Source: a virus. Taken from it: a DNA stretch of 64,000 nt. The position numbers and the translations under genes are program-made. The DNA lies in IMG/VR virus record IMGVR_UViG_3300021420_000016, positions 64,001 through 128,000 of that record; one strand, given 5' to 3'. Positions within the stretch are counted from its first letter, which is position 1. Each line of letters starts with the position of its first letter. This document shows, piece after piece, positions 5,064 to 16,918 of the stretch. Below the pieces are notes generated by a model. The model saw only the letters and a program-made list of their open reading frames with translations, was not told where the DNA came from and did not search any database.

Positions 5064-5348
5064 ATGAGTAGCAGATCAGCAGGCCCCAGCGGCGCCTACA
5101 CATCTGGTGATGGCAAGCGGAAATCCTCCATGGGTCACGCCCGTCACGCCTGGACGTGCCCCTGTGGCAAGACCGTCCGGGGCAACGGCGGCCGGGCGTC
5201 TCACCGCCGCGCCTGCGACATCTGGGCTGAGGAAGAACTAGCCCGGCTGAAGCGAATGCTCGCCGATGTTCCAGCCGCACAGTATGAGGTGCGGCGTCAA
5301 TGGGAGGCCCGGCGAGACCACCTGAAGGAAAGGCTTGGCCATGACTGA
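5064..5348 (+). CDS. small putative Zn-binding protein
   Basis: CPCG...HRRAC; overlaps recombinase start. Confidence 0.5.
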   Translation: MSSRSAGPSGAYTSGDGKRKSSMGHARHAWTCPCGKTVRGNGGRASHRRACDIWAEEELARLKRMLADVPAAQYEVRRQWEARRDHLKERLGHD

Positions 5349-6516: not shown

Positions 6517-6560
6517 CGGGCACCCGGTACTGCCGGTTCTGCTCAGTGATCCTCGAAAAG

Positions 6561-6632
6561 GCGTAAAAGGGAAGGCGCGGCCGGGCACCCTCGGAGTGTG
6601 TCCGGCCGCGCCCGTTTCCCGCGTTTTTACGC
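6561..6632. terminator. long hairpin between convergent recombinase and TROVE genes
   Basis: GCGTAAAA..GGCGCGGCCGGGCAC / GTGTCCGGCCGCGCC..TTTTACGC. Confidence 0.6.
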
Positions 6633-8315
6633 GGCCCGTTCGGCCGATGGCAACAGCCACGGCCAGGTCGCGTCGTGTGAGGCCTCCAGAATGGGGATCA
6701 GGCGGAAGGCGTTGTCGGTAAGCCCGCCCATGGTGTGCCGGTTCCCGCCACCCGAAGGCAGTCCCCCAGTCTTGTACCCGCCGAAGTTCCACAGGTACAC
6801 CGGCACGTGCCGCGGGATCAGGTCATCAATCCTGGTCGACGGCATGCCGCCCGCGAAGTGACAGTTCGACGGCAGGTACCCCGGGGAGGTCTGCTCGTCG
6901 GTGACGATCACCACCCGGTCGTGGTAACCGGCGCGGAAATGCTGCCGCACCGCCGTGGGGATGTCGGTCCCCCACTGCCCCGTGGTGAGCCGCTCCACCA
7001 GCTTGAGCACCGACTCGCCCTGGGTGAACCGCACGGCGGCGTTCACGCCGCGGCCGGTGTCCTGGCCCCAGAACTCCACCAGGTCGGCGTGGGCGGCGCG
7101 CAGGGCGATGGCTGCGGCGAACACGGCCGCCCCGTCGGCCCAGGACATGTCGGAGTGCTCGGACATGTTCTGGTGCCACATCGACGGCGACCGGTCCACC
7201 AGCACCAGCGTGCGGCCCGCCAGCGCGGGCACGTTCGCCAGCGAGTGGCCGAGGCCCTGCTCCAGCGGCCAGCCCCACCGCAGCGACGGGGCGTGCCGGT
7301 AGGCGGCGAGGAACCGGAACGGGAACAGCCGCGACCTGGCCACCCGGTCGGGGTCAGCCAGTTTCGCCGCGACCTCCGCCGCCACCGAGTCCGGGACGCC
7401 GGCCTGGTCGAAGTTCCGCAGGTTCTTCGCCAGCGCGCCCAGGCCCATCATCGGGATCGCCGCAGTCCACGCCTCGCGGGTCATCGGGCCCTGCAGCCAC
7501 CCGGCGAGGGCCTCCCACGTCATCCCCGCATCACGCAGATCCTGAGTTGCCTCCGGCCGGTTCAGCCACGCACGCCGTGCACCCTCCGGCATGGCCATCA
7601 GGGCGTGCCGGCGGCGGATCGTCGCCAGCACCTCCGGGACCGGGTTGCCCCGGTCGTGGCGCCGCTCGATCGCATACCGGTAAAGTGCTTCGCGCCACGT
7701 GCCGTACGCCCTGCGGTGATACCGCGGGTTGACGAGTTCGATAACGTCACCGAATCGCACTGCCGCCTCGTCGGTGTCGTACTTCAGCAGGGCGAACTCG
7801 TTGTAGAGGCGGTGGATCCCGTCGGCGAGGCCCCGCTTGAGCCCGATCGGCATCTTCCGGCCGTAGTTCGCCAGCCAGTAGGCGGTCAGCTCCCCCGGCT
7901 CGTCGGCGCGCTGCAGCACCGAGTCCACCACCGGCCGCGGGAACGTGGCGACGCCCACTTCCCGGCCCGTGCCGGCCTCGTCGCGGCGCGCCCAGGTGAA
8001 CTCCGCCGCGCCGATCACCGGCGCCAGGCGCAGGTTCCCGTCGCCGCGCAGCCACCCGAGCAGGCCGGCCGTCCATGCGGGGTCGGCGGCCGCCATCTCG
8101 CGGACGAGGTGACGGTAGCGCTTCACCCGGGCGTCGCGGCCCTCGTGGAACGCCCTCTCCCCCGGCAGGTTGCACGCCGCCAGGAGGAACAACTCGGACT
8201 GACCCTCGCGGGCATACCCGGGGGCACCCAAGGCGGTACGGCCGGACGGCCCCGGGCCGCTCACGACCGGGCTGGACGCGGCGGCACGGACAGGACCGCG
8301 GTTGAACTTGCTCAT
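6627..8315 (-). CDS. rsr: Ro60/Rsr-like TROVE + vWA RNA-binding protein
   Basis: VLQRADEPGE, MTWEAL, KNLRNFDQAG, SRLFPFRFLAAY; MIDAS VDRSPSM and IVTDEQ; start at MSKFN with upstream RBS. Confidence 0.92.
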   Translation of the reverse strand: MSKFNRGPVRAAASSPVVSGPGPSGRTALGAPGYAREGQSELFLLAACNLPGERAFHEGRDARVKRYRHLVREMAAADPAWTAGLLGWLRGDGNLRLAPVIGAAEFTWARRDEAGTGREVGVATFPRPVVDSVLQRADEPGELTAYWLANYGRKMPIGLKRGLADGIHRLYNEFALLKYDTDEAAVRFGDVIELVNPRYHRRAYGTWREALYRYAIERRHDRGNPVPEVLATIRRRHALMAMPEGARRAWLNRPEATQDLRDAGMTWEALAGWLQGPMTREAWTAAIPMMGLGALAKNLRNFDQAGVPDSVAAEVAAKLADPDRVARSRLFPFRFLAAYRHAPSLRWGWPLEQGLGHSLANVPALAGRTLVLVDRSPSMWHQNMSEHSDMSWADGAAVFAAAIALRAAHADLVEFWGQDTGRGVNAAVRFTQGESVLKLVERLTTGQWGTDIPTAVRQHFRAGYHDRVVIVTDEQTSPGYLPSNCHFAGGMPSTRIDDLIPRHVPVYLWNFGGYKTGGLPSGGGNRHTMGGLTDNAFRLIPILEASHDATWPWLLPSAERAA

Positions 8316-8358
8316 CCTCGCACGCCCCCTTTCGCTGGGGCTCCAGGCGGGAGAGGTA

Positions 8359-8524
8359 ACCTTCATGAATGACATGCCCGACAACGAATCGGCCCACGGG
8401 ACATAAGCGCTCTGCCAGTTGAGCTACGCCCCCAAAGTGGAGGCGACAGGACTTGAACCTGTAACCACTCGATCCACAATCGAAGTACCGCGAACCTGCA
8501 CTTCGGGCATGCCTTCATGAAGTT
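8359..8524 (-). ncRNA. Y RNA 1 (YrlA-like, permuted tRNA-like domain)
   Basis: CCCGAAGTGCAGG...GCCGATTCGTTGTCGGG closing stem; internal order T-arm, closed acceptor-like hairpin, D-arm. Confidence 0.85.
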
Positions 8525-8529
8525 GTACC

Positions 8530-8672
8530 CCCCCCCGACAACGAATCGGCGACGGTAACCGGGGCCGGATTCGAACCGGCGGCCTCCGCCCTTCCGGGCG
8601 GCGCTCTACCAACTGAGCTACCTCGCAAAATGGGTTGGCTGCGAGAAGTAACCGTTGCCTGCACTTCGGGGA
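8530..8672 (-). ncRNA. Y RNA 2 (D-arm, GGAA-capped arm, T-arm)
   Basis: Same terminal motifs; TAGCTCAGTTGGTAGAGC, CCGCCC-GGAA-GGGCGG, GGTTCGAATCC. Confidence 0.8.
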
Positions 8673-8697
8673 GAAGTGCTTTATTTAGTTTATGTCC

Positions 8698-8806
8698 TTC
8701 CCGACAACGGATCGGCGGCGGCTGCGCGGGATTCGAACCCGCAACCTTCAGCTACTGTGACTGATTTCGATCCAATTCGAAGTAGCCGTCTCCTGCACTT
8801 CGGGAA
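8698..8806 (-). ncRNA. Y RNA 3 (T-arm only)
   Basis: Same terminal motifs plus TACTTCG; GCGGGTTCGAATCCCGC. Confidence 0.78.
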
Positions 8807-8889
8807 AGTATTCCCAGAGCCTAGCGAACCGGCAATGCGTGGCGCATCCCGTTTTCGCGTGACCCTGATCACAGCGCGAGCACCCTTTG

Positions 8890-8961
8890 AGTCGGCGGCG
8901 GGAATTGAACCCGCGTGCGCAGCTTTGCAGGCTGCTACCTCTGCCACTCGGCCACGCCGAC
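8890..8961 (-). tRNA. tRNA-Cys(GCA)
   Basis: cloverleaf, loop CT-GCA-AA. Confidence 0.92.
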
Positions 8962-8963
8962 AC

Positions 8964-9039
8964 GGTGAGCGAGGCGGGATTCGAACCCGCAGCCTTCTTC
9001 TTAGGAGGAAGTTGCTCCATCCCGTTGAGCTACCCGCTC
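8964..9039 (-). tRNA. tRNA-Arg(CCT)
   Basis: loop CT-CCT-AA. Confidence 0.9.
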
Positions 9040-9108
9040 GCGGGAACGCCTGGCGACCGCTATGCGTGATCCTTTACCCCCACCGTTTGAAGCTGGGTCC
9101 AGGCGTTC

Positions 9109-9182
9109 GGCGTCCCCGGCGTGACTCGAACACGCGCGCACGGCTCCGGAGGCCACAGCTCTATCCACTGAGCTACGGGGAC
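9109..9182 (-). tRNA. tRNA-Arg(CCG)
   Basis: loop CT-CCG-GA. Confidence 0.9.
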
Positions 9183-9183
9183 T

Positions 9184-9268
9184 TGGTGGCAGGTCCAGGG
9201 TTCGAACCTGGGTAGGCTGAGCCGGCGGTTTTACAGACCGCTCCCTTTGGCCGCTCGGGCAACCTGCC
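9184..9268 (-). tRNA. tRNA-Tyr(GTA)
   Basis: loop CT-GTA-AA, long variable arm, CCA. Confidence 0.95.
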
Positions 9269-9269
9269 T

Positions 9270-9347
9270 TGGGGAGCCCGGCCGGATTTGAACCGGCGAC
9301 GACACGGACCACAACCGTGTGTTCTGCCTGGCTGAACTACAGGCTCC
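9270..9347 (-). tRNA. tRNA-His(GTG)
   Basis: loop TT-GTG-GT, G-1, CCA. Confidence 0.93.
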
Positions 9348-9348
9348 A

Positions 9349-9423
9349 TGGTGGGTGATGATGGGATCGAACCATCGGCCTCTGTCGTGTGAAGGCAGCG
9401 CTCTGCCACTGAGCTAAACACCC
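9349..9423 (-). tRNA. tRNA-Val(CAC)
   Basis: loop TT-CAC-AC, CCA. Confidence 0.9.
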
Positions 9424-9511
9424 CTGCCAGGTCTTGATTTAAGTTCCGGGAATGCTTATTGTTTCCTTGCTACTAAAACCCTTAGCAAGTAGCACGGAAA
9501 GGGACACCTCA

Positions 9512-9655
9512 ATGGGCAGGAACAAAATCGTTGCAACTTGCGCCGCAATCTTTTTCGCGGCCGGGATGGCCGCCCCGGTTATCGCCGCAGCCACACCCGC
9601 CGTGCACGCCGTGGCAGACGGCAGTGGCGGCCCCGACATGTACCACCACAGCTGA
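9512..9655 (+). CDS. 47-aa secreted peptide precursor
   Basis: RBS GGAAAGGGA; signal-peptide-like N-terminus, short polar tail GSGGPDMYHHS. Confidence 0.65.
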   Translation: MGRNKIVATCAAIFFAAGMAAPVIAAATPAVHAVADGSGGPDMYHHS

Positions 9656-9716
9656 CCGTCCCCCAGGCCGTCTGCGGTCCCGAGCCCCCGGCGGGGCCGC
9701 AGACCCCTAAAATAAG

Positions 9717-9789
9717 TGCGCTCGGAGGGACTCGAACCCCCAACAAACTGCTCCGTAGGCAGTTGCTCTATCCGTTGAGCTACGGGCGC
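9717..9789 (-). tRNA. tRNA-Arg(ACG)
   Basis: loop CT-ACG-GA. Confidence 0.93.
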
Positions 9790-9800
9790 ATGGTATCGCG

Positions 9801-9873
9801 TGGGCGTACCTGGGATCGAACCAGGGATCCTCTGCCGTGTCGAGACAGCGCTCTGCCGCTGAGCTACACGCCC
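9801..9873 (-). tRNA. tRNA-Val(GAC), C33
   Basis: loop TC-GAC-AC. Confidence 0.88.
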
Positions 9874-10382
9874 ACCGTTACTTCCAGGCCAATCTCGGCG
9901 GCCTGCCCAGCGATCTTCTCCGGCAGTTCCCAGCCGAGCCGGGCCAGCCGCTGCACTGCCTGCCGGGCACCATTCCCGGCCCGGCCCGCTAGGTTCACGT
10001 TCTCCAGTGCCTCGTTCATCATGTCCTCCATCCCCCGGTCGGTCACCATGAACGGAATCACGTTGAACAGCACGACCGCCGCCGCAGCGCCGGTGAGAGT
10101 CCACCGGCCGGTGGATGGCTGGACGCCGATCTCGCAATGGATATGCGCCTCGCCGCAATGCTCGGCGCAGCCCCGCTTGTCCCACTCCTTGCCCGGACGG
10201 GGAGGCCGCGGCTCCGCGTTGCTGTCGGTGAGCCGGCACAACTCCCTGATCACGCTCAGGTAAGAAGAGTCGACCCGCAGCACCAGTTGCGGCGTCGCCC
10301 GGGTGAGGTTGTCCTTCCGGTGGATGCGGCCCTGCATGTCCAAGATGGCCGCCATCCAGGCCAGCTTCTCGGCAGGGACCAT
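9864..10382 (-). CDS. LAGLIDADG-like homing endonuclease-related protein (degenerate motif)
   Basis: LAWMAAILDMQGRI...LVLRV...VIRELCRL. Confidence 0.55.
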   Translation of the reverse strand: MVPAEKLAWMAAILDMQGRIHRKDNLTRATPQLVLRVDSSYLSVIRELCRLTDSNAEPRPPRPGKEWDKRGCAEHCGEAHIHCEIGVQPSTGRWTLTGAAAAVVLFNVIPFMVTDRGMEDMMNEALENVNLAGRAGNGARQAVQRLARLGWELPEKIAGQAAEIGLEVTVGV

Positions 10383-10408
10383 AAACCTCAGCCTAGCGCC
10401 GTGATACG

Positions 10409-10483
10409 CGGGACAGGCGGGATTCGAACCCGCGGCCTCCACCTTGACAGGGTGGCGAGCACTCCTGACTGCTCCACAGTCCC
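10409..10483 (-). tRNA. tRNA-Asp(GTC)
   Basis: loop CT-GTC-AA. Confidence 0.93.
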
Positions 10484-10598
10484 ATGATTCCGGTCGCGGC
10501 CCCGCAGGCTATCGCGCCTCACCTGCGGTCAGCGGACGGCGAACCCGCCTATGTTTGCCCACCGGAACTGCACCAGCCAGATGCAGGTGTTGGAAAAC

Positions 10599-10673
10599 GG
10601 CTCCCGAGGAAGGGCTCGAACCTTCAACCTGCCGGTTAACAGCCGGACGCTCTGCCGATTGAGCTACCCGGGA
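10599..10673 (-). tRNA. tRNA-Asn(GTT)
   Basis: loop CT-GTT-AA. Confidence 0.93.
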
Positions 10674-10814
10674 ATGAGAAAGAAGCCCCGCCTACACGGA
10701 GCGCCCCGACGGCACTCCCGCCCTTATGCTGCCGTCGCAGCCCCATGGGCACTTGGTCCGCGGCCCGCGCGCCCTGCCTTCGGGTCAAGCCCGTACATCC
10801 TCAGCGGAACTTCG

Positions 10815-10888
10815 TAGCGGGGGGCGGATTTGAACCGCCGTCCTCTGGGTTATGAGCCCAGCGAGCTACCGAACTGCTCCACCCCGCG
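10815..10888 (-). tRNA. tRNA-fMet(CAT)
   Basis: 5' CGCGGGG, C1 unpaired, GGG/CCC anticodon stem. Confidence 0.92.
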
Positions 10889-10976
10889 TCGCATGTGAGA
10901 TTTCCCGGCCACCTGGCCAACTCAGGTACCCACAACGGCCTCTCTACGGCTGACACTGATCACGCTACCACATTCG

Positions 10977-11052
10977 TGGTGGCTCCAGTCAGATTCGAAC
11001 TGACGCCGTCTCCTTGAAAGGGAGGTGACCTGGGCCGCTAGTCGATGGAGTC
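10977..11052 (-). tRNA. tRNA-Glu(TTC)
   Basis: loop CT-TTC-AA, CCA. Confidence 0.88.
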
Positions 11053-11053
11053 G

Positions 11054-11126
11054 TATCCCGGGAGGGATTCGAACCCCCGCCGCCACCTTGAGAGAGTGGC
11101 ATCCTAGGCCGCTAGACGACCGGGAC
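11054..11126 (-). tRNA. tRNA-Glu(CTC)
   Basis: loop CT-CTC-AA. Confidence 0.92.
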
Positions 11127-11138
11127 ATGTACTTTACG

Positions 11139-11211
11139 TGCGCCGCCGCGGACTCGAACCGCGAGCCGTCTCCTTAGAGGGGAGCCGCTCTATCCATTGA
11201 GCTAGCGGCGC
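11139..11211 (-). tRNA. tRNA-Arg(TCT), C33
   Basis: loop CC-TCT-AA, A20 in D-loop. Confidence 0.85.
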
Positions 11212-11371
11212 TGGCCGCGTCTCCGATTTCCCGGCGGACGGCTTGCTTCTCGCGTGCACGCTGAGCGCGCCGGCCGATCTCCTTCATACCGGGCTTGTAA
11301 CCCGGGTCGTGACCGGGGCAGCACCAATTCTGGTCGTGGGCACTGCGGGCCCGGCCGAGCATCCTTGCCAT
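11174..11371 (-). CDS. small basic Cys-containing protein, similar to N-terminus of 55181..55636
   Basis: MARMLGR..CC..RRAQRAREK vs MAKMLGR..CRC..RRARKRAEA; upstream GGAGG. Confidence 0.5.
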   Translation of the reverse strand: MARMLGRARSAHDQNWCCPGHDPGYKPGMKEIGRRAQRAREKQAVRREIGDAASAASSMDRAAPL

Positions 11372-11394
11372 GGGGCGCATCCTCCGGTTAGGGG

Positions 11395-11895
11395 CTATGC
11401 CGCTTCGCGCAGAGTGCGCATTCCGCGAGTGCCAGGCGTCTCACCCCGGCGAACCCGGCCATCGTATTTGGCTTGGCGGCATAGACCGCAGCGGCATCCG
11501 CGACCGTATTCCGCTTGAGAACCGTGGCCCTTTCGCTGAAGTTGCGGCCACGGGCGTTCGACACGCTGCTCGGCTAGGTCAGTGACCGTTTTCCGGTGAT
11601 GATGCGCGCCACATAGAACTTGGCACCCTTCAAGCTCCTCAAGGAACTTCACTTCTGCGATCGACCATAGTCTCGCTAGGTCGATCTCTTTGGCGCGCCA
11701 ATCAATGTGGTCGATCTCCAGGTCGGCGGTGCCGCCGCACTCGGCACAGGCGCCGCCTAGCAGCGCGATGGCTCGATCCCGTCGTTCGTGGTAGCGCCGG
11801 AGCATGTAATCGCGCATGTAGCCGTTGTAGCAGTCGCGACATCTCTTGCCGTTGGCATACTCCCTGACGGGCCTGCCGCACTGGTTGCAACACAT
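11395..11895 (-). CDS. HNH endonuclease
   Basis: CAECG..LEIDHID...CQVLCGAHH; TATAAT 6 nt before ATG (leaderless). Confidence 0.88.
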   Translation of the reverse strand: MCCNQCGRPVREYANGKRCRDCYNGYMRDYMLRRYHERRDRAIALLGGACAECGGTADLEIDHIDWRAKEIDLARLWSIAEVKFLEELEGCQVLCGAHHHRKTVTDLAEQRVERPWPQLQRKGHGSQAEYGRGCRCGLCRQAKYDGRVRRGETPGTRGMRTLREAA

Positions 11896-11910
11896 GTTCG
11901 AATTATATGC

Positions 11911-11986
11911 GGTGCCCCGCCTCGGATTCGAACCGAGAACCCGCGGATTAAAAGTCCGCTGCTCTAAGCCGTTGAGCTAGCAGGGC
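11911..11986 (-). tRNA. tRNA-Lys(TTT)
   Basis: loop CT-TTT-AA. Confidence 0.93.
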
Positions 11987-12043
11987 GTGGGGCTGGGTAT
12001 TCGTACGACCTGTTTCTCGCGCATCGTTTCCTCCTTTCCGGGG

Positions 12044-12120
12044 GGTAGGCCGGGCGGGGGTCGAACCCGCACATCTTCCGCTTATAAGGCGGCTGCCGTC
12101 ACCCTGTTGGCCACCGGCCT
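12044..12120 (-). tRNA. tRNA-Ile(TAT)
   Basis: loop CT-TAT-AA, discriminator A. Confidence 0.85.
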
Positions 12121-12126
12121 CCTGAG

Positions 12127-12198
12127 TAGCGAGAGGGGATTCTGCCACCCCGGCCTCTCCGTTATGGGCGGAGCGCTCTCCTTCTGAGCTATCCCGCT
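12127..12198 (-). tRNA. tRNA(CAT) Met/Ile2, C33, aberrant T-loop
   Basis: loop CC-CAT-AA; T-arm GGGGTGGCAGAATCCCC lacks TTC. Confidence 0.7.
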
Positions 12199-12213
12199 GG
12201 GTCCCCGTGGGGG

Positions 12214-12289
12214 TGGTGGGCCTAGGTGCTTTTGGGACACCGACCTCCCGGTTATCAGCCGGACGCTCTTACCTCTGAGCTACAGGCCC
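12214..12289 (-). tRNA. tRNA-Ile(GAT), aberrant T-loop
   Basis: loop CT-GAT-AA; T-arm GGTGTCCCAAAAGCACC; CCA. Confidence 0.75.
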
Positions 12290-12290
12290 T

Positions 12291-12382
12291 TGGAGGAGGG
12301 TGCGAGATTCGAACTCGCGAGACGAGTCCCCCCGTCTAGCCGTTTTCGAGACGGTGCCGTAGGCCACTCCGGTCAACCCTCC
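12291..12382 (-). tRNA. tRNA-Ser(CGA)
   Basis: loop CT-CGA-AA, long variable arm, CCA. Confidence 0.88.
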
Positions 12383-12387
12383 ACAAG

Positions 12388-12476
12388 CGGAGTGACAAGG
12401 ATTCGAACCTTGGAGGGGCTTGCGCCCCAACGGCGTTAGCAGCGCCGCGCCATAGGCCAGACTAGGCGACCACCCC
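12388..12476 (-). tRNA. tRNA-Ser(GCT)
   Basis: loop CT-GCT-AA, long variable arm. Confidence 0.92.
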
Positions 12477-12554
12477 ATTGTGCGGTGGGCGGGGACAGGC
12501 GGACCCGCTGGTACGCGCAGACCAGCATGGCCGTGATCTCCCCGCCTCACTGCG

Positions 12555-12630
12555 TAGCGCTCGTCGGATTCGAACCGACACTGTCGCGGACCTGAACCGC
12601 GCGCCTCCTACCATGTTGGGCTAGAGCGCC
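12555..12630 (-). tRNA. tRNA-Leu(CAG), short variable region
   Basis: loop TT-CAG-GT. Confidence 0.85.
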
Positions 12631-12735
12631 TGGCCAGGGATCAGGCCGGTGCCGTCTGGCTCACGCTGCCTTCCCGGCACCGCCGGCTCCGCAGTCAGCG
12701 TGATGGGGATAACCGTGTGGCGCCTGATCCCTTAG

Positions 12736-12808
12736 AGCGGACGGCCGGGATCGAACCGGCGACTTCAACCTTGGCAAGGTTGCGCTCTGCCAACTGAGCC
12801 ACGCCCGC
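12736..12808 (-). tRNA. tRNA-Gly(GCC)
   Basis: loop TT-GCC-AA. Confidence 0.95.
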
Positions 12809-12818
12809 ATGTATTTCG

Positions 12819-12890
12819 AGCGGAAGACGGGGATCGAACCCGCAACCCCGACCTTGGGAAGGTCGTGCTCTGCCATTGAGCCACTTCCGC
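12819..12890 (-). tRNA. tRNA-Gly(CCC)
   Basis: loop TT-CCC-AA. Confidence 0.94.
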
Positions 12891-12891
12891 A

Positions 12892-12967
12892 TGGAGCCCG
12901 ACCGGGGAATTGAACCCCGCCTACGGCCTTACCAAGGCCGGGTGCTTACCGCTATCACTAGCCGGGC
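12892..12967 (-). tRNA. tRNA-Thr(GGT)
   Basis: loop TT-GGT-AA, CCA. Confidence 0.9.
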
Positions 12968-12971
12968 GAAG

Positions 12972-13042
12972 CTGGGGGAGCTGGGGTCGAACCAACGTTC
13001 CAGGGACCAAAGCCCCGTGTCCTGCCTTTAGACGATCCCCCA
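12972..13042 (-). tRNA. tRNA-Gln(TTG)
   Basis: loop CT-TTG-GT. Confidence 0.9.
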
Positions 13043-13043
13043 T

Positions 13044-13121
13044 TGGAGCCGGCCATCGGGCTTGAACCGATCACCTGCCGCTTACAGGGCGGCTGCTCTG
13101 CCTGCGATGAGCTAGGCCGGC
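13044..13121 (-). tRNA. tRNA-Thr(TGT), C33
   Basis: loop CC-TGT-AA, CCA. Confidence 0.88.
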
Positions 13122-13187
13122 GTGATCCTGGCAGGCACCGCAGGCGACCTTTGGCGCCGCAGTGAGGCCTGCCCTGCCAAGGAATCG

Positions 13188-13262
13188 TGTGCTCGGAGGG
13201 ACTTGAACCCTCAACATCCGGCACCTCGGGCCGACCTCTCTGCCACATTGGAGTACGAGCAC
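13188..13262 (-). tRNA. tRNA-Leu(GAG), C33, short variable region
   Basis: loop CC-GAG-GT. Confidence 0.85.
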
Positions 13263-13335
13263 TCAGTCAGTTCTTAGGCCAGCCGTATGGTGGGTATGAC
13301 TCATCCCAACGATACCGATCGCAGGGAGCGCCCCC

Positions 13336-13572
13336 GTGGATGAGCCCAATCTCACTCTCCCCGAAGCCCAGGAGCAACTACCGGCGATCTGCCAGCGGTT
13401 CGCTGCCGACCCAGGAACCCGGGATGCCGTTGTAGTGACAGACGCCGATGGCCCAGTGGCCGTGATCATCCCCTGGCGGAGGTACCGGGCCTGGGCCGGC
13501 CTCGGGGGGGAGACCCTGATGCCCGTTCACCAAAACGGCCGCCTGATAGCGGTTGTCCGGGACTGCGGCTGA
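13336..13572 (+). CDS. Phd/YefM-like orphan antitoxin-fold protein
   Basis: LTLPEAQEQLPAIC...AVVVT..GPVAVIIP. Confidence 0.5.
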   Translation: MDEPNLTLPEAQEQLPAICQRFAADPGTRDAVVVTDADGPVAVIIPWRRYRAWAGLGGETLMPVHQNGRLIAVVRDCG

Positions 13573-13575
13573 CTG

Positions 13576-13650
13576 GGAGCCCGATGCCGGGGTCGAACCG
13601 GCGACCTCCGCGGTACGAAGGCGGCGCTCTACCGACTGAGCTAACCGGGC
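13576..13650 (-). tRNA. tRNA-Thr(CGT)
   Basis: loop TT-CGT-AC, C31-C39 mismatch. Confidence 0.85.
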
Positions 13651-13802
13651 GTGGCTGCCCCGCGTACGCCGGTTCGGCGGGGCGCACCAGGGCGGGAGAA
13701 TCCGGGGCCGTGCGATCAGCCGCCCAAGATCGCCTCGATCTTCCATGTTCCCGGTGATCAACTCCGGGTGGGCCCCTGCGCCAGTGCCGGCCAGTTACCT
13801 TC

Positions 13803-14477
13803 TTAGGGATTCCTGGCCGCTGATGCAACCGGCGCTGCTCCCGGAGCTGGGGTCGAACCAACTACGGGACTTACCGCTTCCGGGGCTGGACTCGAACCAG
13901 CGAGGACAGGGGCCAGAACCCTGCTGGGGACGCCGCCGCCCCACCCGGAATCAAGTCGGCCCGAACGGATAGCCGTACGGATCCGATGACAATTAGCGCA
14001 AACTATGTCACACTTCGCGATCTCAGCAAGGATTCTGCTCCATGACCAGCGGGTAAGCACGGCACTTATGTTGCCCAGCTTGTCATCCCCATCCCTGTGG
14101 TCGTAATCCATAACACAAGGGGGGAACCGGCCACCGCAATCAGCGCACGGGACGTCTTTCAATGCGTCGAGTCGCTGCCGGTTCGCCTCGTATCGTTGCC
14201 GGTTGCGGTCCAGATATACCTGCTTGTTGTCGTTGTACCACCGTTGCTTCGCCGCCCGCTGTGCTTCTTTGTTACGGCCGGCACCGGTCCCTTTCTTCCA
14301 CCGGACCCCGAGAAAATGTGAAGTATCCAGGCCCAGCTCTGCGGCTACCGCCCTGATTCTGTGGTATGAACTACCTCCGTCAGCCTTAAGTCCAAGCGCT
14401 CGGGCTACCTGGCCCCAAGTCGTGGATTGAGTGATGGCATCAGCTAGATCGCCGTCGGACCATGACCTGGTTCTCAT
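13803..14477 (-). CDS. HNH endonuclease inserted in tRNA-Gln
   Basis: PCADCG...MDYDHRD...KCDIVCANCHRIRT; TATACT 7 nt before ATG. Confidence 0.88.
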   Translation of the reverse strand: MRTRSWSDGDLADAITQSTTWGQVARALGLKADGGSSYHRIRAVAAELGLDTSHFLGVRWKKGTGAGRNKEAQRAAKQRWYNDNKQVYLDRNRQRYEANRQRLDALKDVPCADCGGRFPPCVMDYDHRDGDDKLGNISAVLTRWSWSRILAEIAKCDIVCANCHRIRTAIRSGRLDSGWGGGVPSRVLAPVLAGSSPAPEAVSPVVGSTPAPGAAPVASAARNP

Positions 14478-14561
14478 GCCTGCCAGTATACGGCAAGGTG
14501 TAGGGCTCTAGTCGCTTCGTCTGATCCAGAGTCAGGTGTCCTGCCATTGGACGATCCGGGA
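13838..14561 (-). pseudogene. split tRNA-Gln(CTG): 5' part 14520-14561, 3' part 13838-13866
   Basis: TCCCGGA acceptor strand pairs with TCCGGGA about 650 bp downstream; halves join into a complete cloverleaf. Confidence 0.8.
13877..13950 (-). tRNA. tRNA-Gln(CTG), atypical D-arm, inside the HNH insertion
   Basis: TTCCGGG/CCCGGAA acceptor, loop TT-CTG-GC, GGTTCGAGTCC. Confidence 0.7.
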
Positions 14562-14565
14562 TTAG

Positions 14566-14647
14566 TGCGGGACGAGGGATTTGAACCCTCACGCCCTCTC
14601 GGGCACACGGACTTGAGCCGTGCGTGTCTGCGTTTCACCAGCCCCGC
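14566..14647 (-). tRNA. tRNA-Leu(CAA)
   Basis: loop CT-CAA-GT, long variable arm. Confidence 0.9.
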
Positions 14648-14653
14648 TGGCCT

Positions 14654-15442
14654 TCAAAACGCCTTCCGCATTTCCTCGATCAGGGCCAGCGATTGCGGCG
14701 CGTTCAGGGCTATGCTTTGCAGCCAATCCGCTTGCGCGCGGAACCGGTCCAGGTCTGCGGTGTGGTCCTGGTACCTGTCTTCTCTCTCGGAGAAGACCAT
14801 CGGGGGCAGTTCGCCGGCGAAATCCAGGATCGTGAAGTTCGGCGCCGGGGAGGAGATCAGCGCCGCGCGGAACGGGACTACCCGCACGATGGCGCCTTCG
14901 CCGGCAAGGTTCAGGATGTGCCCGAGCTGGTCGGCCATGATGTCGGCGCCGGGGTGGCGCTGCAGGACCGCCTCATCCAGGAGGAACGTTGTGGGGATCT
15001 TCCCCACCAGTACCTGCCGGGCTTCACGCACCTGCGGGTACGGCCGGCCGGCGGCCTGGTCGTAGTTTGCGGTGCGCAGCAGCGCGGGGATTACGTCGCG
15101 GGCGAGGCAGACGAGGGACTCGGCGTTTTGCTCCAGGCTGAGGTACAGGACCGACCGGTCGTTGCTGATCGGCTCTATCCTCCACGGGTCTTTCTCCCGG
15201 CCGCGTCTCACGGCGGCAAGGAGCTCCGCCGCGGTGGCCTGGTCGGCGCCGTAGACGAGGCACATGGAGCGGACTGTGCGCCCGTCGGCGAGCCGGTCGC
15301 CGGTTTCGGTGCGGCTGACCGTGGCCATGGAGCACAGCAGTTCGGCTGCGGCCTGCTCGATCGTCATGCCCGCTGCGGTGCGCAGTTCGCGCAGGCGGGC
15401 GGCGAGTTTCATCTGGGCTACGGCGGGGCTGTCACTTGCCAT
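14654..15442 (-). CDS. XRE HTH + DUF5753-type regulator
   Basis: LAARLRELRTAAGMTIEQAA..SMATVSRTETG; IPALLRTANY; LDEAVL. Confidence 0.82.
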   Translation of the reverse strand: MASDSPAVAQMKLAARLRELRTAAGMTIEQAAAELLCSMATVSRTETGDRLADGRTVRSMCLVYGADQATAAELLAAVRRGREKDPWRIEPISNDRSVLYLSLEQNAESLVCLARDVIPALLRTANYDQAAGRPYPQVREARQVLVGKIPTTFLLDEAVLQRHPGADIMADQLGHILNLAGEGAIVRVVPFRAALISSPAPNFTILDFAGELPPMVFSEREDRYQDHTADLDRFRAQADWLQSIALNAPQSLALIEEMRKAF

Positions 15443-15487
15443 GTGGCACATATACCCTGCACCGGGCATTTTGCACGTAACCTATCG

Positions 15488-15559
15488 TGCGCCGCCAGGG
15501 GATCGAACCCCGGACCCGCCGATTAAGAGTCGGCTGCTCTACCACTGAGCTAGCAGCGC
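15488..15559 (-). tRNA. tRNA-Lys(CTT)
   Basis: loop CT-CTT-AA. Confidence 0.95.
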
Positions 15560-15560
15560 C

Positions 15561-15634
15561 TGGAGCGGGTGAAGGGGATCGAACCCTCATGACCAGCTTG
15601 GAGGGCTGGGGCTCTGCCATTGAGCTACGCCCGC
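15561..15634 (-). tRNA. tRNA-Gly(TCC), C33
   Basis: loop CC-TCC-AA, CCA. Confidence 0.9.
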
Positions 15635-15643
15635 ATTGACTTT

Positions 15644-15720
15644 TGGTGGCCACTCTCCGAGTCGAACGGAGGCCCTCTCACTTTTCAGGCGAGCGCTCAT
15701 ACCAACTGAGCTAAGCGGCC
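15644..15720 (-). tRNA. tRNA-Phe(GAA)
   Basis: loop CT-GAA-AA, CCA. Confidence 0.92.
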
Positions 15721-15724
15721 ATAG

Positions 15725-15796
15725 TCGGGATGGTCCGAACCGAACGGACGCCCTTCTGCTCCCAAAGCAGACGCTCTTCCACTGAGCTACACCCCG
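15725..15796 (-). tRNA. tRNA-Pro(TGG)
   Basis: loop TT-TGG-GA. Confidence 0.88.
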
Positions 15797-15801
15797 AATC
15801 G

Positions 15802-15876
15802 TCGGGACAGACCGATTTGAACGGCCGGCCTCCGGCTCCCCGAGCCGGCGCTCTAACCAAGCTGAGCTATGCCCCG
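15802..15876 (-). tRNA. tRNA-Pro(GGG), C33
   Basis: loop TC-GGG-GA. Confidence 0.88.
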
Positions 15877-16062
15877 GTTACGCCACGTGTTTCCAGGTGC
15901 GCCCACACCGAATATCGCTGATCGTGGCCTTGTGAACTCCCAGCAGTTTGGCAAGGGCAATCCCCCGACGCATGAGCCGTTCGCGGCCAGCCACTTGGCT
16001 CTCCTGGCAGCGACCCACTCCCGCATGTACTTTCGCTGCCGCTCAGGATCGGCATAAGGCAT
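15853..16062 (-). pseudogene. HNH endonuclease N-terminal remnant
   Basis: MPYADPERQRKYMREWVAARRAKWL..GSCV resembles the start of 11395..11895; no HNH core. Confidence 0.55.
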
Positions 16063-16104
16063 GCGAACGGTATATCGCAGTTAGCCCTTTGACCTGTACT
16101 CTTG

Positions 16105-16182
16105 TGGTCGGGATGGGGTGATTCGAACACCCGGCCTCCTCGTCCCGAACGAGGCGCGCTGACCAAGCTGCGCCACATCCCG
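16105..16182 (-). tRNA. tRNA-Pro(CGG)
   Basis: loop TT-CGG-GA, CCA. Confidence 0.94.
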
Positions 16183-16414
16183 TTTGCCGGTTCCCTCCCA
16201 GGGCGTGCCGCCAGTGCAGGCAGAGAACGTTCCGTCCCCTTGCCGGAAAGAGGGACCCAGGCCCCTCGCGCGTCCGGGCGGGGAGACTTCCCCGGGGGCG
16301 GACTGTGATGCGCATTGCACGGCGGTCCCTGGTTGCCGGATCAGCCCTCCGCAGTTTGCTGTGTGGTACGTCACTTCTGCGAGCGATATCCGGCCCGGCT
16401 AGCGGGGACCGTAG

Positions 16415-16487
16415 TGGAGTTACAGGGACTCGAACCCTGGGCCTCCGCGTTGCGGGCGCGGCGCTCTCCCGGCTGAGCTATAACCCC
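16415..16487 (-). tRNA. tRNA-Ala(CGC), C33
   Basis: G3:U70, loop CC-CGC-AA. Confidence 0.9.
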
Positions 16488-16585
16488 TCAAGCGTGGTGG
16501 CCTCCGGTTGTTTGTCCCTTATTTAGCAGGGAGAGCCACGTATTCCCCGGAGGTTGCCCCCGGCGCCAGTCCGGGACCCCCCTTG

Positions 16586-16658
16586 TGGAGCTACGCGGAT
16601 TCGAACCGCGGACCCTCTCGATGCCATCGAGATGCTCTGCCAACTGAGCTATAACCCC
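16586..16658 (-). tRNA. tRNA-Ala(GGC)
   Basis: G3:U70, loop AT-GGC-AT. Confidence 0.93.
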
Positions 16659-16845
16659 ATCTGGGCGGTTAGAACTGCCGCTCCCCCACTGGCCCAGAGT
16701 GGGCCGGCGGGATCATCGACGGGCAGAGACCACCCACGCGGGACTTATGGCCGCCCGCCTTTTCGTTTGGTGCTCACGCTATGCAAGTTTCAACCACCGG
16801 GCGGGTTCACCAGCCTTACCTCTCGGTCGCGCTGGTGCCGCTTCG

Positions 16846-16918
16846 CCCGGACGGAGGGACTCGAACCCTCAACCAACGGTTTTGGAGACCGTCACTCTTC
16901 CAATTGAGCTACGTCCGA
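16846..16918 (-). tRNA. tRNA-Trp(CCA)
   Basis: loop CT-CCA-AA. Confidence 0.92.

What the first reader, a model, noticed from the sequence alone, without database searches (positions are those of the whole stretch)
6627..8806. Ro60/TROVE gene with three Y RNAs carrying three different tRNA-mimic payloads
Seen: three tandem RNAs share CCCGAAGTGCAGG-N7-TACTTC ... GCCGATYCGTTGTCGGG ends. Inside, RNA1 has a permuted T-arm/acceptor hairpin/D-arm, RNA2 has an unpermuted D-arm/GGAA-tetraloop arm/T-arm, and RNA3 has a T-arm only. Known: bacterial Ro binds Y RNAs, and YrlA has the permuted tRNA-like domain. Inference: a modular Ro-tether family in which RNA2 and RNA3 are atypical architectures, perhaps decoys or adaptors for tRNA-acting enzymes. 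No rtcB was recognised in the window.
Basis: partly seen in the sequence, partly recalled or inferred. Interest (0 to 1): 0.75.

Follow-up and report, generated by a model that had tools for sequence, protein, structure and literature searches.

The report
Phage Ro60 with three Y RNAs
A soil actinobacterial phage carries a Ro60 gene preceded by three small Y RNAs, and one of them belongs to a conserved, apparently undescribed design that copies a whole tRNA, including a built-in CCA end.

Summary
On the minus strand a 37-tRNA array is followed by three tandem RNAs and then a Ro60/TROVE gene (8315→6627). RNA3 is 8808→8696, RNA2 8674→8530 and RNA1 8513→8371. All three share the ends CCCGAAGUGCAGG-N7-UACUUC and GCCGAUYCGUUGUCGGG.

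Relatives of this Ro gene in phage contigs and Streptomyces chromosomes are mostly preceded by 2-4 such units. Their terminal stems covary, so these are Y RNAs.

- **RNA1** is YrlA-type: T arm, closed acceptor hairpin, D arm.
- **RNA3** is a weak cloverleaf with the Y stem in the acceptor position, as described for Deinococcus Yrn1.
- **RNA2** is a third topology. The Y stem is followed by a 7-bp acceptor-like hairpin whose loop starts N-CCA, then UA, a D arm, a short-looped anticodon-like arm and a T arm, and returns to the Y stem.

I found 10 RNA2-type members. Compensatory changes occur in 24 of 39 predicted pairs. There were none in 80 bacterial rsr loci and none in 7 cultured actinophage loci.

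Soil metatranscriptome contigs match RNA2 and RNA3 exactly, but no DNA-contamination control was possible. Ro binding, processing and function are untested.

Verdict: a known kind (phage Ro60 with tRNA-like Y RNAs) with a new, conserved variant.

The parts
6627..8315 (-). rsr: Ro60/TROVE protein gene (562 aa, P0001), ATG at 8315, stop at 6627
   Evidence: Translation. Pfam TROVE E 6.9e-9. PDB 9KOP/9L5Y phage phiLo Ro60 E 7.5e-23. The D374-x-S376-x-S378 columns (a MIDAS-type motif, name recalled) are invariant in 14 Ro sequences.
8371..8513 (-). RNA1: YrlA-type Y RNA. Order: frame, 5-bp/7-nt-loop hairpin (UUCGA-UUGUGGA-UCGAG), T arm, 7-bp closed acceptor hairpin, UA, D arm, frame.
   Evidence: Sequence. 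Rfam YrlA local hit at 8406-8469, 35.6 bits. Unit ends from the script. CM R1 frame hit at 8370-8513, 36.4 bits.
8530..8674 (-). RNA2: new-topology Y RNA. Order: frame, long inner stem (GGCAACGGUUACU/GGUUACCGUCGCC), acceptor-like hairpin, D arm, short-looped arm, T arm, frame.
   Evidence: Fold. Class alignments and covariation. CM R1 143.9 bits. Exact-match metatranscriptome contigs at 8535-8788, 8529-8732, 8565-8788 and 8567-8717.
8621..8646 (-). RNA2 acceptor-like hairpin: 7 bp (UCUCGCA/UGCGAGG). The loop starts G-CCA (8639-8636) followed by an A/U-rich linker. The 3' strand starts at 8627, which is where ARAGORN starts its tRNA call.
   Evidence: The stem covaries (5 of 7 pairs with compensatory change). 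N-CCA is present in 9 of 10 class members, read from the alignment.
8557..8627 (-). RNA2 tRNA-like core: D arm 8603-8618, anticodon-like arm 8586-8601 (6 bp plus GGAA), variable AGGCC, T arm 8564-8580
   Evidence: Rfam tRNA 44 bits. ARAGORN tRNA-???.
8696..8808 (-). RNA3: Y RNA whose inner stem (GGCUAC/GCAGCC) takes the acceptor position. It is followed by hairpin UUCGA-AUUGGA-UCGAA, hairpin UCAGU-CACAGUA-GCUGA, AAGGU and a T arm.
   Evidence: Fold. tRNA model over 8719-8787 at 26.2 bits, E 7.6e-4. Loose class with L012, L009, L006 and L057.
8518..8526 (-). Inter-unit spacer motif ACAACUUCA between RNA2 and RNA1
   Evidence: the motif lies within 30 nt downstream of 50 of 494 heuristic units. 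There are 151 occurrences in 1.07 Mb overall.
8889..16918 (-). Array of 37 tRNA genes on the same strand, directly upstream of the Y RNAs
   Evidence: ARAGORN, Rfam.

Best explanation
This is the Ro60 (rsr) module of an uncultured 154-kb soil actinophage. It holds three Y RNAs, probably transcribed together with the upstream tRNA array and cut out of the precursor.

Each Y RNA is closed by the same Ro-binding frame: a terminal stem, an asymmetric loop (AGUGCA against GAUYCGUUG), and an inner stem that uses the N7 bases and UAC. Each displays a different tRNA-like effector module.

- RNA1 is a YrlA-type permuted mimic, with the Y stem in the anticodon-stem position.
- RNA3 is a cloverleaf with the Y stem in the acceptor position (Yrn1-like).
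- RNA2 represents a conserved third design, in which the Y stem enters between the T arm and the 3' strand of the acceptor stem. The module therefore keeps all four tRNA arms, the elbow nucleotides and an encoded N-CCA, while its anticodon loop is replaced by a 3-7-nt cap or an extended hairpin.

Inferred mechanism: phage Ro60 binds the shared frame. The modules then tether Ro60 to different tRNA-recognising host proteins, or are themselves handled by them. RNA2 looks built to be cut by RNase P at its +1 position and trimmed back to CCA, which would give a nicked, CCA-ended tRNA mimic held on Ro60.

Shown here: sequence, conservation, covariation, linkage to rsr, and presence in RNA libraries. 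Inferred: Ro binding, processing, effector identity and biological role.
For: **Ro gene.**

**Shared frame.** It is shown. The cmscan alignment shows that the consensus of the D. radiodurans Y RNA model carries CCgaAGuG...CGGUUaCuuC. Chen et al. 2014 (passages) say the GNCGAA(N)G motif overlaps sequences important for Rsr binding.

**Family.**
- 405 or more viral and 571 or more bacterial stretches encode Ro relatives.
- A heuristic unit finder sees a chain of 2 or more units directly upstream of rsr in 72 of 86 viral loci and 65 of 80 bacterial loci.
- CM R1 hits the units at 20-59 bits in most loci.
- Terminal stems differ between units yet stay complementary.

**RNA2 class.**
- R1 gives 5 viral hits at 124-154 bits, with the next best at 59 (88 sources).
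- It gives 5 more hits at 109-128 bits among 80 metagenome loci, with the next best at 57.
- On 5 sequences, 95.8% of cells are paired against 75.2% in shuffles. 21 of 38 pairs covary, no shuffle of 500 reaches this, and slid controls give 40-50%.
- On 10 sequences, 24 of 39 pairs carry compensatory changes.
- N-CCA is present in 9 of 10 members, whereas at most 10 of the phage's 37 tRNA calls end in CCA.
- An rsr gene lies within about 1.5 kb for 7 of 10 members. The other 3 have flanks too short to tell.

**Expression hint.** Contigs from four soil RNA-Seq runs match 8529-8788 and 8100-8457 with 0 differences.

[quoted passage not shown] Phage Ro60 binding phage Y-like RNAs and host PNPase (PMC12135203, passages).
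Against: - No experiment here shows Ro binding, processing or any effector.
- RNA1 and RNA3 are below Rfam gathering scores (35.6 against 69 for YrlA; 26.2 against 29 for tRNA; 15.1 against 80 for Deinococcus Y RNA).
- Single-sequence folds are not better than shuffles (z -1.3 to -1.6).
- The RNA-library matches are assembled contigs at depth 2-10.
- The invariant CC after the T arm could pair either with the invariant GG before UA, as in a true tRNA, or with G45/G46 as RNAalifold draws it. The exact junction geometry is therefore undecided.
- The RNA2 class was collected with an exact-motif pattern. Its members share the invariant D and T loops by construction, and its true frequency is unknown.
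- The unit counts come from a heuristic with known errors. It counted tRNA-Arg(cct) as a unit in the window.
Confidence: 0.75

Rival explanations
1. RNA2 is just a degenerate or unusual tRNA gene of the array that happens to sit between two Y RNAs.
For: It passes the Rfam tRNA gathering score (44 against 29). It lies at the end of a 37-tRNA array. Its core is about 82-86% identical over 76-89 nt to ordinary mycobacteriophage tRNAs.
Against: The loop has 4 nt instead of 7, and 3 of the 7 tRNA-model acceptor pairs are non-standard. It carries the same 5' and 3' frame as RNA1 and RNA3. Nine further members keep the Y frame, the upstream N-CCA hairpin and the long inner stem with compensatory changes. 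Their loops are tetraloops or 3-7 nt with no conserved anticodon.
Confidence: 0.05
2. The units are structured spacers or processing signals of the tRNA-array transcript (punctuation for RNase P, Z or E). They are not ligands of Ro60.
For: They share the strand of the tRNA array and lie immediately downstream of it, with no promoter-like site found in 6400-9700. tRNAs and units are interleaved in some loci (L015, L043, L049). A conserved spacer motif follows some units.
Against: The units track rsr. They sit directly upstream of it in Streptomyces chromosomes that show no tRNA array in the same loci. The frame matches the Ro-binding region motif of D. radiodurans Yrn1. Published Y RNAs have this same position and strand.
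Confidence: 0.07
3. RNA2-type units are circularly permuted tRNA genes. The Y stem is excised and the ends are ligated to give a functional tRNA.
For: The order is acceptor 3' strand, N-CCA, linker, acceptor 5' strand, D arm, anticodon arm, T arm. The Y stem brings position 65 next to position 66.
Against: No member has a 7-nt loop with a conserved anticodon. Several have GNRA or UUCG tetraloops. No RtcB ligase family match exists in the phage. The Y frame is conserved as in the neighbouring non-tRNA units.
Confidence: 0.03
4. The T-arm-bearing unit RNA3 is, or doubles as, an attachment site for the neighbouring tyrosine integrase. Phage attP sites often copy the 3' part of a host tRNA.
For: A tyrosine integrase gene lies at 5335-6516 (+), 1.7 kb away. 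RNA3 holds an anticodon-arm-like hairpin, a variable loop and a T arm.
Against: RNA3 has the complete Y frame at both ends. Analogous units lie upstream of rsr in loci where no integrase was looked for or seen. rsr lies between RNA3 and the integrase.
Confidence: 0.03

Closest known systems
YrlA RNAs (Rfam RF02553; S. Typhimurium and M. smegmatis; Chen et al. 2014, PMC4201824; structure preprint 10.1101/312249)
   Same: They are encoded just upstream of rsr on the same strand. A 5'/3' stem carries a CGAA-containing motif. The tRNA-like module has a T arm, a closed acceptor hairpin and a D arm, and RNA1 has exactly this order. M. smegmatis YrlA is cut by RNase P and gains CCA.
   Different: RNA1 scores 35.6 bits against the gathering score of 69, and only locally. 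According to the preprint, YrlA lacks an anticodon loop or arm and a free or encoded CCA. RNA2 keeps an anticodon-like arm, encodes N-CCA, and attaches the Y stem at the T-arm/acceptor junction instead of the anticodon stem.
Deinococcus radiodurans Yrn1 (Rfam RF01053)
   Same: The frame motif CCGAAGUG...CGGUUACUUC appears in the model consensus. The D-like, anticodon-like and T arms stand in unpermuted order with the Y stem in the acceptor position, and the anticodon loop has 6 nt (Chen 2014). RNA3 has this topology.
   Different: The score is 15.1 bits against 80. RNA2 differs from Yrn1 in having its own closed 7-bp acceptor hairpin with N-CCA in addition to the Y stem.
YrlB and other second Y RNAs (S. 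Typhimurium YrlB; M. smegmatis YrlB with a possible T arm; D. radiodurans Yrn2)
   Same: Several Y RNAs per rsr locus are processed from one precursor, and some contain only part of a tRNA-like module.
   Different: Here there are three units with three full but differently wired tRNA-like modules. Short hairpin-only units, which are common in relatives, are absent from this window.
Thermus phage phiLo Ro60 with Yrl1 and Yrl2 (NAR 2025, PMC12135203)
   Same: A phage-encoded Ro60 has Y-like RNAs immediately upstream. P0001 matches its solved structure at E 7.5e-23. The phiLo protein binds its RNAs and forms complexes with host PNPase.
   Different: In the passages read, the phiLo RNAs are described as stem-bulge-stem Y RNAs with a CGAA motif. 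No tRNA-like modules or link to a tRNA array are mentioned there (only passages were read).
Circularly permuted tRNA-like RNAs (two-piece/permuted tmRNA, RF04321)
   Same: A T arm is followed by an acceptor strand ending in CCA, upstream of the rest of the molecule. RNA1 gives a weak local hit (23.1 bits against 47).
   Different: There is no mRNA-like part, and no evidence of aminoacylation.

Membership tests
Ro60 / TROVE protein | TROVE domain | tested here: met
   PF05731, E 6.9e-9, 35.8 bits against cut-off 23
Ro60 / TROVE protein | Homology to a Ro60 of solved ring structure | tested here: met
   9KOP/9L5Y (phage phiLo Ro60), E 7.5e-23, residues 253-477. No NCBIfam model matched.
Ro60 / TROVE protein | C-terminal vWA domain with a DxSxS metal-site motif | tested here: met
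   D374, S376 and S378 are invariant in 14 aligned Ro sequences. The motif name is recalled and no structure was predicted.
Bacterial Y RNA (general) | Encoded within a few kb of rsr on the same strand | tested here: met
   The three units lie 56-493 nt upstream of the rsr start on the minus strand.
Bacterial Y RNA (general) | 5' and 3' ends pair into a stem that carries the GNCGAA(N)G-type motif | tested here: met
   CCCGAAG is present in all three units, with C in place of the first G. The terminal and inner stems covary in relatives.
Bacterial Y RNA (general) | Bound and stabilised by Ro60 | not testable with these tools
   This needs a pull-down or EMSA.
YrlA (RF02553) | Reaches the Rfam gathering score | tested here: not met
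   RNA1 scores 35.6 bits against 69. RNA2 gives no hit. RNA3 scores 12.1 bits, T arm only.
YrlA (RF02553) | Module order T arm, closed acceptor stem-loop, UA, D arm | tested here: met
   Met for RNA1 (alignment). Not met for RNA2 or RNA3.
Deinococcus Y RNA (RF01053) | Reaches the Rfam gathering score | tested here: not met
   RNA3 scores 15.1 bits against 80, E 1.8-8.5.
Deinococcus Y RNA (RF01053) | Y stem in the acceptor position, followed by D-like, anticodon-like and T arms | tested here: inconclusive
   RNA3 aligns to the tRNA model in that order at 26.2 bits, E 7.6e-4. Covariation in the loose 5-member class is modest, 10 of 32 pairs.
tRNA (RF00005) | Reaches the Rfam gathering score | tested here: met
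   The RNA2 core scores 44 bits against 29.
tRNA (RF00005) | 7-nt anticodon loop, and an acceptor stem formed by the 5' and 3' ends | tested here: not met
   The loop is GGAA. Three of the seven model acceptor pairs are non-standard. The partner of the acceptor 5' strand lies upstream, at 8640-8646. RNA2 is therefore not a tRNA.
RNA2-type Y RNA (class proposed here) | Y frame, then a 7-bp hairpin with an N-CCA loop, UA, D arm, short-looped arm, AGGYC, T arm, CC, then the Y frame | tested here: met
   10 members. 24 of 39 pairs have compensatory changes. N-CCA in 9 of 10 (L183 has CACA).

The most novel reading that the evidence does not exclude
RNA2-type Y RNAs are matured by host RNase P and 3' exonucleases into a nicked but complete tRNA mimic with a true 5' end and a free CCA-3' end, held on phage Ro60.

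In this reading, the mimic serves as bait for enzymes that act on the tRNA acceptor end. It could be a decoy or sensor for host anti-phage toxins that modify or cut tRNA 3' ends. It could instead recruit CCA-end repair or trimming enzymes to Ro60, so that the phage's own 37 tRNAs are checked or protected during infection.

The capped anticodon arm would keep it away from the ribosome and from anticodon nucleases.
Probability: 0.12. Interest if true: 0.85.

Novelty: new variant of a known kind. Interest (0 to 1): 0.6.

Why it matters
Y RNAs are thought to work as modular tethers, with one end holding Ro60 and the other recruiting a partner. For the tRNA-like bacterial Y RNAs, that partner is still unknown.

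This locus shows the same Ro-binding frame carrying three differently wired tRNA mimics side by side. It reveals a conserved third wiring that keeps the whole acceptor/T-arm helix with an encoded CCA while discarding the anticodon loop. This narrows what the unknown partner may read: the elbow and the acceptor end, not the anticodon. It also offers a natural set of variants for binding and processing tests.

The analysis also shows that large actinophages commonly place Ro60 and arrays of Y RNAs inside or beside their tRNA arrays. Standard tools can annotate these RNAs as tRNAs. RNA2 passes the Rfam tRNA threshold, and a unit in Streptomyces phage Alone3 is deposited as tRNA-Ser.

Tried and rejected
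- **blastn against GenBank phages.** Searching 8330-8830 against 50,697 GenBank phage records covered at most 18% of the query. The Myrna, Phabba and ScoobyDoobyDoo hits are ordinary tRNAs.
- **Exact window motifs in the first 15 relatives.** These led nowhere, because relatives use CCCGGUGCG.../...UUGAUCUCGGG frames.
- **Local 5' hairpin.** RNAfold draws a GAAGUGC.../...GGUACUUC hairpin for RNA1. I rejected it because most relatives have GGUGCG, which cannot pair with ACUUC, while the inner stem covaries.
- **Regex classification.** It called 'D before T' in L004, L011, L025, L026, L062, L164 and L169. By eye none is RNA2-type: L004, L025, L164 and L169 are plainly YrlA-type, and L011 and L062 are odd or mis-delimited units. 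All score 42 bits or less with R1 where listed. The same finder missed RNA2 until a G-U limit was fixed, and it counted tRNA-Arg(cct) as a unit.
- **Pattern-scan false positives.** L087, L091 and L093 are ordinary tRNAs. 75 of the 80 metagenome loci fetched were not RNA2-type.
- **N-CCA enrichment in general.** N-CCA loops in the first hairpin are not generally enriched: 7 of 266 by a crude script that itself missed three true members.
- **Other negative searches.** No RtcB (PF01139) or CCA-adding enzyme (PF01743) family match in the phage. No promoter-like site, and only chance-level terminator-like sites, in 6400-9700. No NCBIfam match for Ro.
- **Cultured phages.** R1 found no RNA2-type unit in 7 of the 49 GenBank phage records that encode a Ro relative (best 52.6 bits). 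The other 42 were not examined.
- **Metatranscriptome cover.** The contigs leave 8458-8528 and 8789-8893 uncovered, and I draw no conclusion from that.
- **Reviews not held.** The two reviews I tried to read (PMC10870794, PMC6047535) are not held. A description of RNA2-like Y RNAs there or in other unheld papers cannot be excluded.
- **Literature searches.** My three searches returned no paper whose title or abstract describes such a design. Supplementary tables of Chen et al. 2014 were not opened.
Full report
**What is there.** The window is bases 64001-128000 of a 154,048-bp virus record that CheckV rates 98% complete. Earlier notes of this scan, on other loci of the same genome, call it an uncultured soil actinophage.

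On the minus strand, ARAGORN and Rfam find 37 tRNA genes from 16918 down to 8889. Three tandem units follow, and then an ORF whose ATG at 8315 gives a 562-aa protein, P0001.

P0001 has a Pfam TROVE domain (E 6.9e-9). It matches the solved Ro60 of Thermus phage phiLo (9KOP/9L5Y, E 7.5e-23). Its relatives keep an invariant D-x-S-x-S motif.

Aligning the three units shows invariant CCCGAAGTGCAGG, seven variable bases, TACTTC and, at the 3' end, GCCGAT(T/C)CGTTGTCGGG.

**The units belong to a large Ro-linked family.**
- Back-translated Ro motifs found 405 or more viral and 571 or more bacterial stretches encoding relatives. I kept 80 of each. The bacterial ones are mostly Streptomyces.
- Printing the 1 kb upstream of rsr in the first 15 viral loci showed tandem units built on one plan. 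A variable 5-11-nt strand is followed by G(U/A)GCG..., a few bases, GGNUACUUC, a payload, (C)UUGAUCU, and the complement of the first strand.
- The terminal stems differ between units but remain complementary, for example GUCCAG/CUGGAC, CCUCCCG/CGGGAGG and CUGCUGA/UCAGCAG.
- A heuristic finder, with known errors, sees a chain of 2 or more units directly upstream of rsr in 72 of 86 viral loci and 65 of 80 bacterial loci. It sees none in 10 and 14 loci respectively.
- The covariance model R1, although built for RNA2, hits the frames of these units at 20-59 bits in most loci.

The frame of this window is especially close to that of D. radiodurans Yrn1. The Rfam consensus reads CCgaAGuG...CGGUUaCuuC (alignment). 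Chen et al. 2014 state that the GNCGAA(N)G motif overlaps the sequences important for Rsr binding (passages read). Together with position and strand, this makes 'Y RNAs' the right name, although Ro binding was not tested.

**RNA1 (8513->8371)** follows the published YrlA plan. After UACUUC comes a 5-bp hairpin with a 7-nt loop, then a T arm, a 7-bp closed acceptor-like hairpin, UA and a D arm. The Rfam YrlA model aligns to it locally at 35.6 bits, below the gathering score of 69. Relatives score 34-55 bits. It works like a YrlA, but these actinophage units are too divergent to pass the curated threshold.

**RNA3 (8808->8696)** is more than a T arm. Searched alone, the Rfam tRNA model aligns its whole core (8719-8787) at 26.2 bits, E 7.6e-4:
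- GGCUAC/GCAGCC of the Y inner stem stands as the acceptor stem.
- UUCGA-AUUGGA-UCGAA stands in the D-arm position.
- A 5-bp stem with a 7-nt loop stands as the anticodon arm.
- AAGGU and a canonical T arm follow.

This is the wiring Chen et al. describe for Yrn1. Four other units (L012, L009, L006, L057) share the plan of small hairpin, second hairpin, T arm, with modest covariation in 10 of 32 pairs. Other units of 110-130 nt are built differently.

**RNA2 (8674->8530) is the interesting one.** Its order is as follows:
- The frame, then a long inner stem (GGCAACGGUUACU with GGUUACCGUCGCC).
- A 7-bp hairpin UCUCGCA/UGCGAGG, whose loop begins G-CCA.
- UA, then a D arm GCUCAGUUGGUAGAGC.
- A 6-bp arm capped by GGAA.
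- AGGCC, a T arm and CCC, then back into the inner stem.

The hairpin is thus a closed acceptor stem: 3' strand, discriminator, CCA, linker, 5' strand. The Y stem enters between the T arm and the acceptor 3' strand. In YrlA it enters at the anticodon stem, and in Yrn1 at the acceptor end.

ARAGORN's 'tRNA-???' starts exactly at the 5' strand of this stem (8627). Rfam scores the core as a tRNA at 44 bits, although 3 of its 7 acceptor pairs are non-standard and the loop has only 4 nt.

**The design is conserved.**
- ARAGORN flagged a second case in L033.
- An exact-motif pattern found L088, L089 and the contigs of L033 and L044 among 7 viral matches. The other 3 matches are true tRNAs.
- A model built from the 5 sequences (R1) scores them at 124-154 bits. 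The next best hit in 88 viral sources is 59 bits. The best in 80 bacterial rsr loci is 48 bits, and the best in 7 cultured actinophage loci is 52.6 bits.
Of the 80 loci fetched, 5 are RNA2-type at 109-128 bits, with the next best at 57. Two of these, L252 and L234, are nearly identical.

On the 5-sequence alignment, 95.8% of cells pair against 75.2 ± 2.1% in shuffles. 21 of 38 pairs carry compensatory changes, no shuffle of 500 reaches this, and sliding the partners by 1-3 columns gives 40-50%. On 10 sequences, 24 of 39 RNAalifold pairs carry compensatory changes, including 5 pairs of the acceptor-like hairpin and 6 pairs of the anticodon-like arm. The D stem is invariant, so it says nothing either way.

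Further features of the class:
- N-CCA follows the 7-nt strand in 9 of 10 members; L183 has CACA. By contrast, at most 10 of the phage's 37 tRNA calls end in CCA.
- The caps of the anticodon-like arm are GGAA, GAAA, UUCG, 3-7-nt loops or an extended hairpin, with no conserved triplet.
- An rsr gene lies within about 1.5 kb for 7 of 10 members, downstream of rsr in L089. The other 3 have flanks of 600 nt or less.
- L044 comes from a 210-kb contig with nearly the same local tRNA set as this window (His, Tyr, Arg-ccg and then Cys and Arg-cct, the last two in swapped order). Its array holds a short unit, an RNA2-type unit, a T-arm unit and a YrlA-type unit.

Each RNA2-type unit wears the frame of its own array. 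That is what a modular family should look like.

**Expression.** Six soil metatranscriptome runs hold 26-55% of the sampled words of 8300-8900. I laid four of them. They give contigs with 0 differences covering:
- 8535-8788 (X2), 8565-8788 (X5), 8529-8732 (X6) and 8567-8717 (X4), that is RNA2 and most of RNA3;
- 8307-8457 and 8100-8314 (X4), and 8249-8399 (X2), that is the 3' half of RNA1 and the start of rsr.

These are low-depth assembled contigs. They cannot show ends or strand, DNA may be present in such libraries, and I could not lay a silent control. I count this as a hint of transcription and not as proof.

**Mechanism.** By analogy with published systems, phage Ro60 should bind the shared frame and the modules should contact tRNA-recognising proteins. 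The published systems are Ro60/Y RNA/PNPase in D. radiodurans and S. Typhimurium and phage phiLo Ro60 with its Yrl RNAs and host PNPase.

RNA2 keeps every nucleotide class used for the tRNA elbow (my reading, with tertiary-pair roles recalled). These are U8/A14, G15/C48, G18 G19 and the T loop. It also keeps a 7-bp stem, N-CCA and a U-rich base before +1. It therefore looks like a good RNase P substrate, as shown experimentally for M. smegmatis YrlA.

Cleavage and trimming would leave a nicked mimic with a free CCA end. The phage has no RtcB or CCA-adding enzyme family match, so host enzymes would have to act. All of this paragraph is inference.

**Comparison and novelty.** Already published: Ro60 genes in phages, tRNA-like Y RNAs, multiple Y RNAs per locus, and both the YrlA and Yrn1 wirings. 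[quoted passage not shown]

I found no description of a Y RNA with a closed N-CCA acceptor hairpin plus D, anticodon-like and T arms in unpermuted order. The three literature searches and the passages read showed none. Two relevant reviews are not held, and the supplements of Chen et al. 2014 were not opened. I therefore rate it a new variant of a known kind.

**Limits.**
- The class was gathered with an exact pattern, so its D and T loops are invariant by construction and its frequency is a lower bound.
- R1's E-values are rough.
- The unit counts are heuristic.
- The junction geometry around the invariant CC after the T arm is unresolved.
- Binding, processing and function are untested.

Noticed in passing
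window 8480-8496 (RNA1 first hairpin); many loci, e.g. L005:2356-2373: In YrlA-type units the hairpin right after UACUUC (the 'V arm' of Chen 2014) looks like an anticodon stem-loop. Of 182 such units, 119 have a 4-5-bp stem with a 7-nt loop, and 97 of those loops fit Y-U-NNN-R-N. Most are CU-NN-U-AA: CUGCUAA, CUCAUAA, CUGUUAA, CUGAUAA and CUCUUAA. The units were not deduplicated.
   Followed up: partly
window 8518-8526 (-); e.g. L003:2213, L009:1688 and 1824: A conserved motif ACAACUUCA(UG) follows the 3' end of some units. It lies within 30 nt downstream of 50 of 494 heuristic units, against 151 occurrences in 1.07 Mb overall. It may be a processing signal.
   Followed up: partly
L302:2420-2913 (Streptomyces phage Alone3), L303:2430-2900 (BRock), L301:1660-2080 (Kela), L304:2420-2840 (Frankenweenie): Cultured Streptomyces phages carry unannotated arrays of 3-4 Y-like units upstream of their 'Ro-like RNA binding protein' genes. 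In Alone3 and BRock these sit inside tRNA arrays. The Alone3 feature tRNA-Ser(gct) at L302:2774-2847 lies inside a YrlA-type unit (2770-2913), and its 'anticodon' is the V-arm loop.
   Followed up: partly
L094-L173 (mostly Streptomyces chromosomes), about 450 nt upstream of rsr: Bacterial rsr loci usually show two or three tandem units, typically about 145, 80 and 145 nt, for example L101:2048-2193, 2202-2280 and 2289-2435 (counts).
   Followed up: partly
L009:1558-1684; L302:2577-2665; L303:2583-2670; L072:2063-2118: A minimal unit type has a hairpin right after UACUUC whose loop starts ACCA, followed by a GNRA- or UUCG-capped hairpin, with no D or T arm. It looks like RNA2 stripped of its elbow.
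   Followed up: no
many loci, e.g. L022:2323-2397, L005:2330-2403: ARAGORN calls the 5' half of many YrlA-type units a tRNA (Ser-gct, Asn-gtt, Ile-gat and others). It uses the Y 5' strand and the acceptor-hairpin 5' strand as an acceptor stem. Whether this alternative pairing ever forms was not examined.
   Followed up: no
window 2463-3983 (+), 5335-6516 (+), about 6574-6612: An IS605-type TnpB gene (OrfB_IS605 plus Cas12f1-like TNB) and a tyrosine integrase gene lie next to rsr. A 15-bp GC-rich inverted repeat sits between the convergent integrase and rsr genes (read by eye). The terminator scan did not call it.
   Followed up: no
window 8889-16918 (-): The 37-tRNA array covers all 20 amino acids, with Ile only as anticodon UAU. 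It is interrupted by ORFs, among them an HTH_31/DUF5753 regulator at 14654-15469.
   Followed up: no
L301:2157-2909 (Streptomyces phage Kela): An annotated RNA ligase gene lies between the Y-like array and the Ro gene. This recalls the rsr-rtcB linkage of enterobacteria, but no ligase was seen beside rsr in this window.
   Followed up: no
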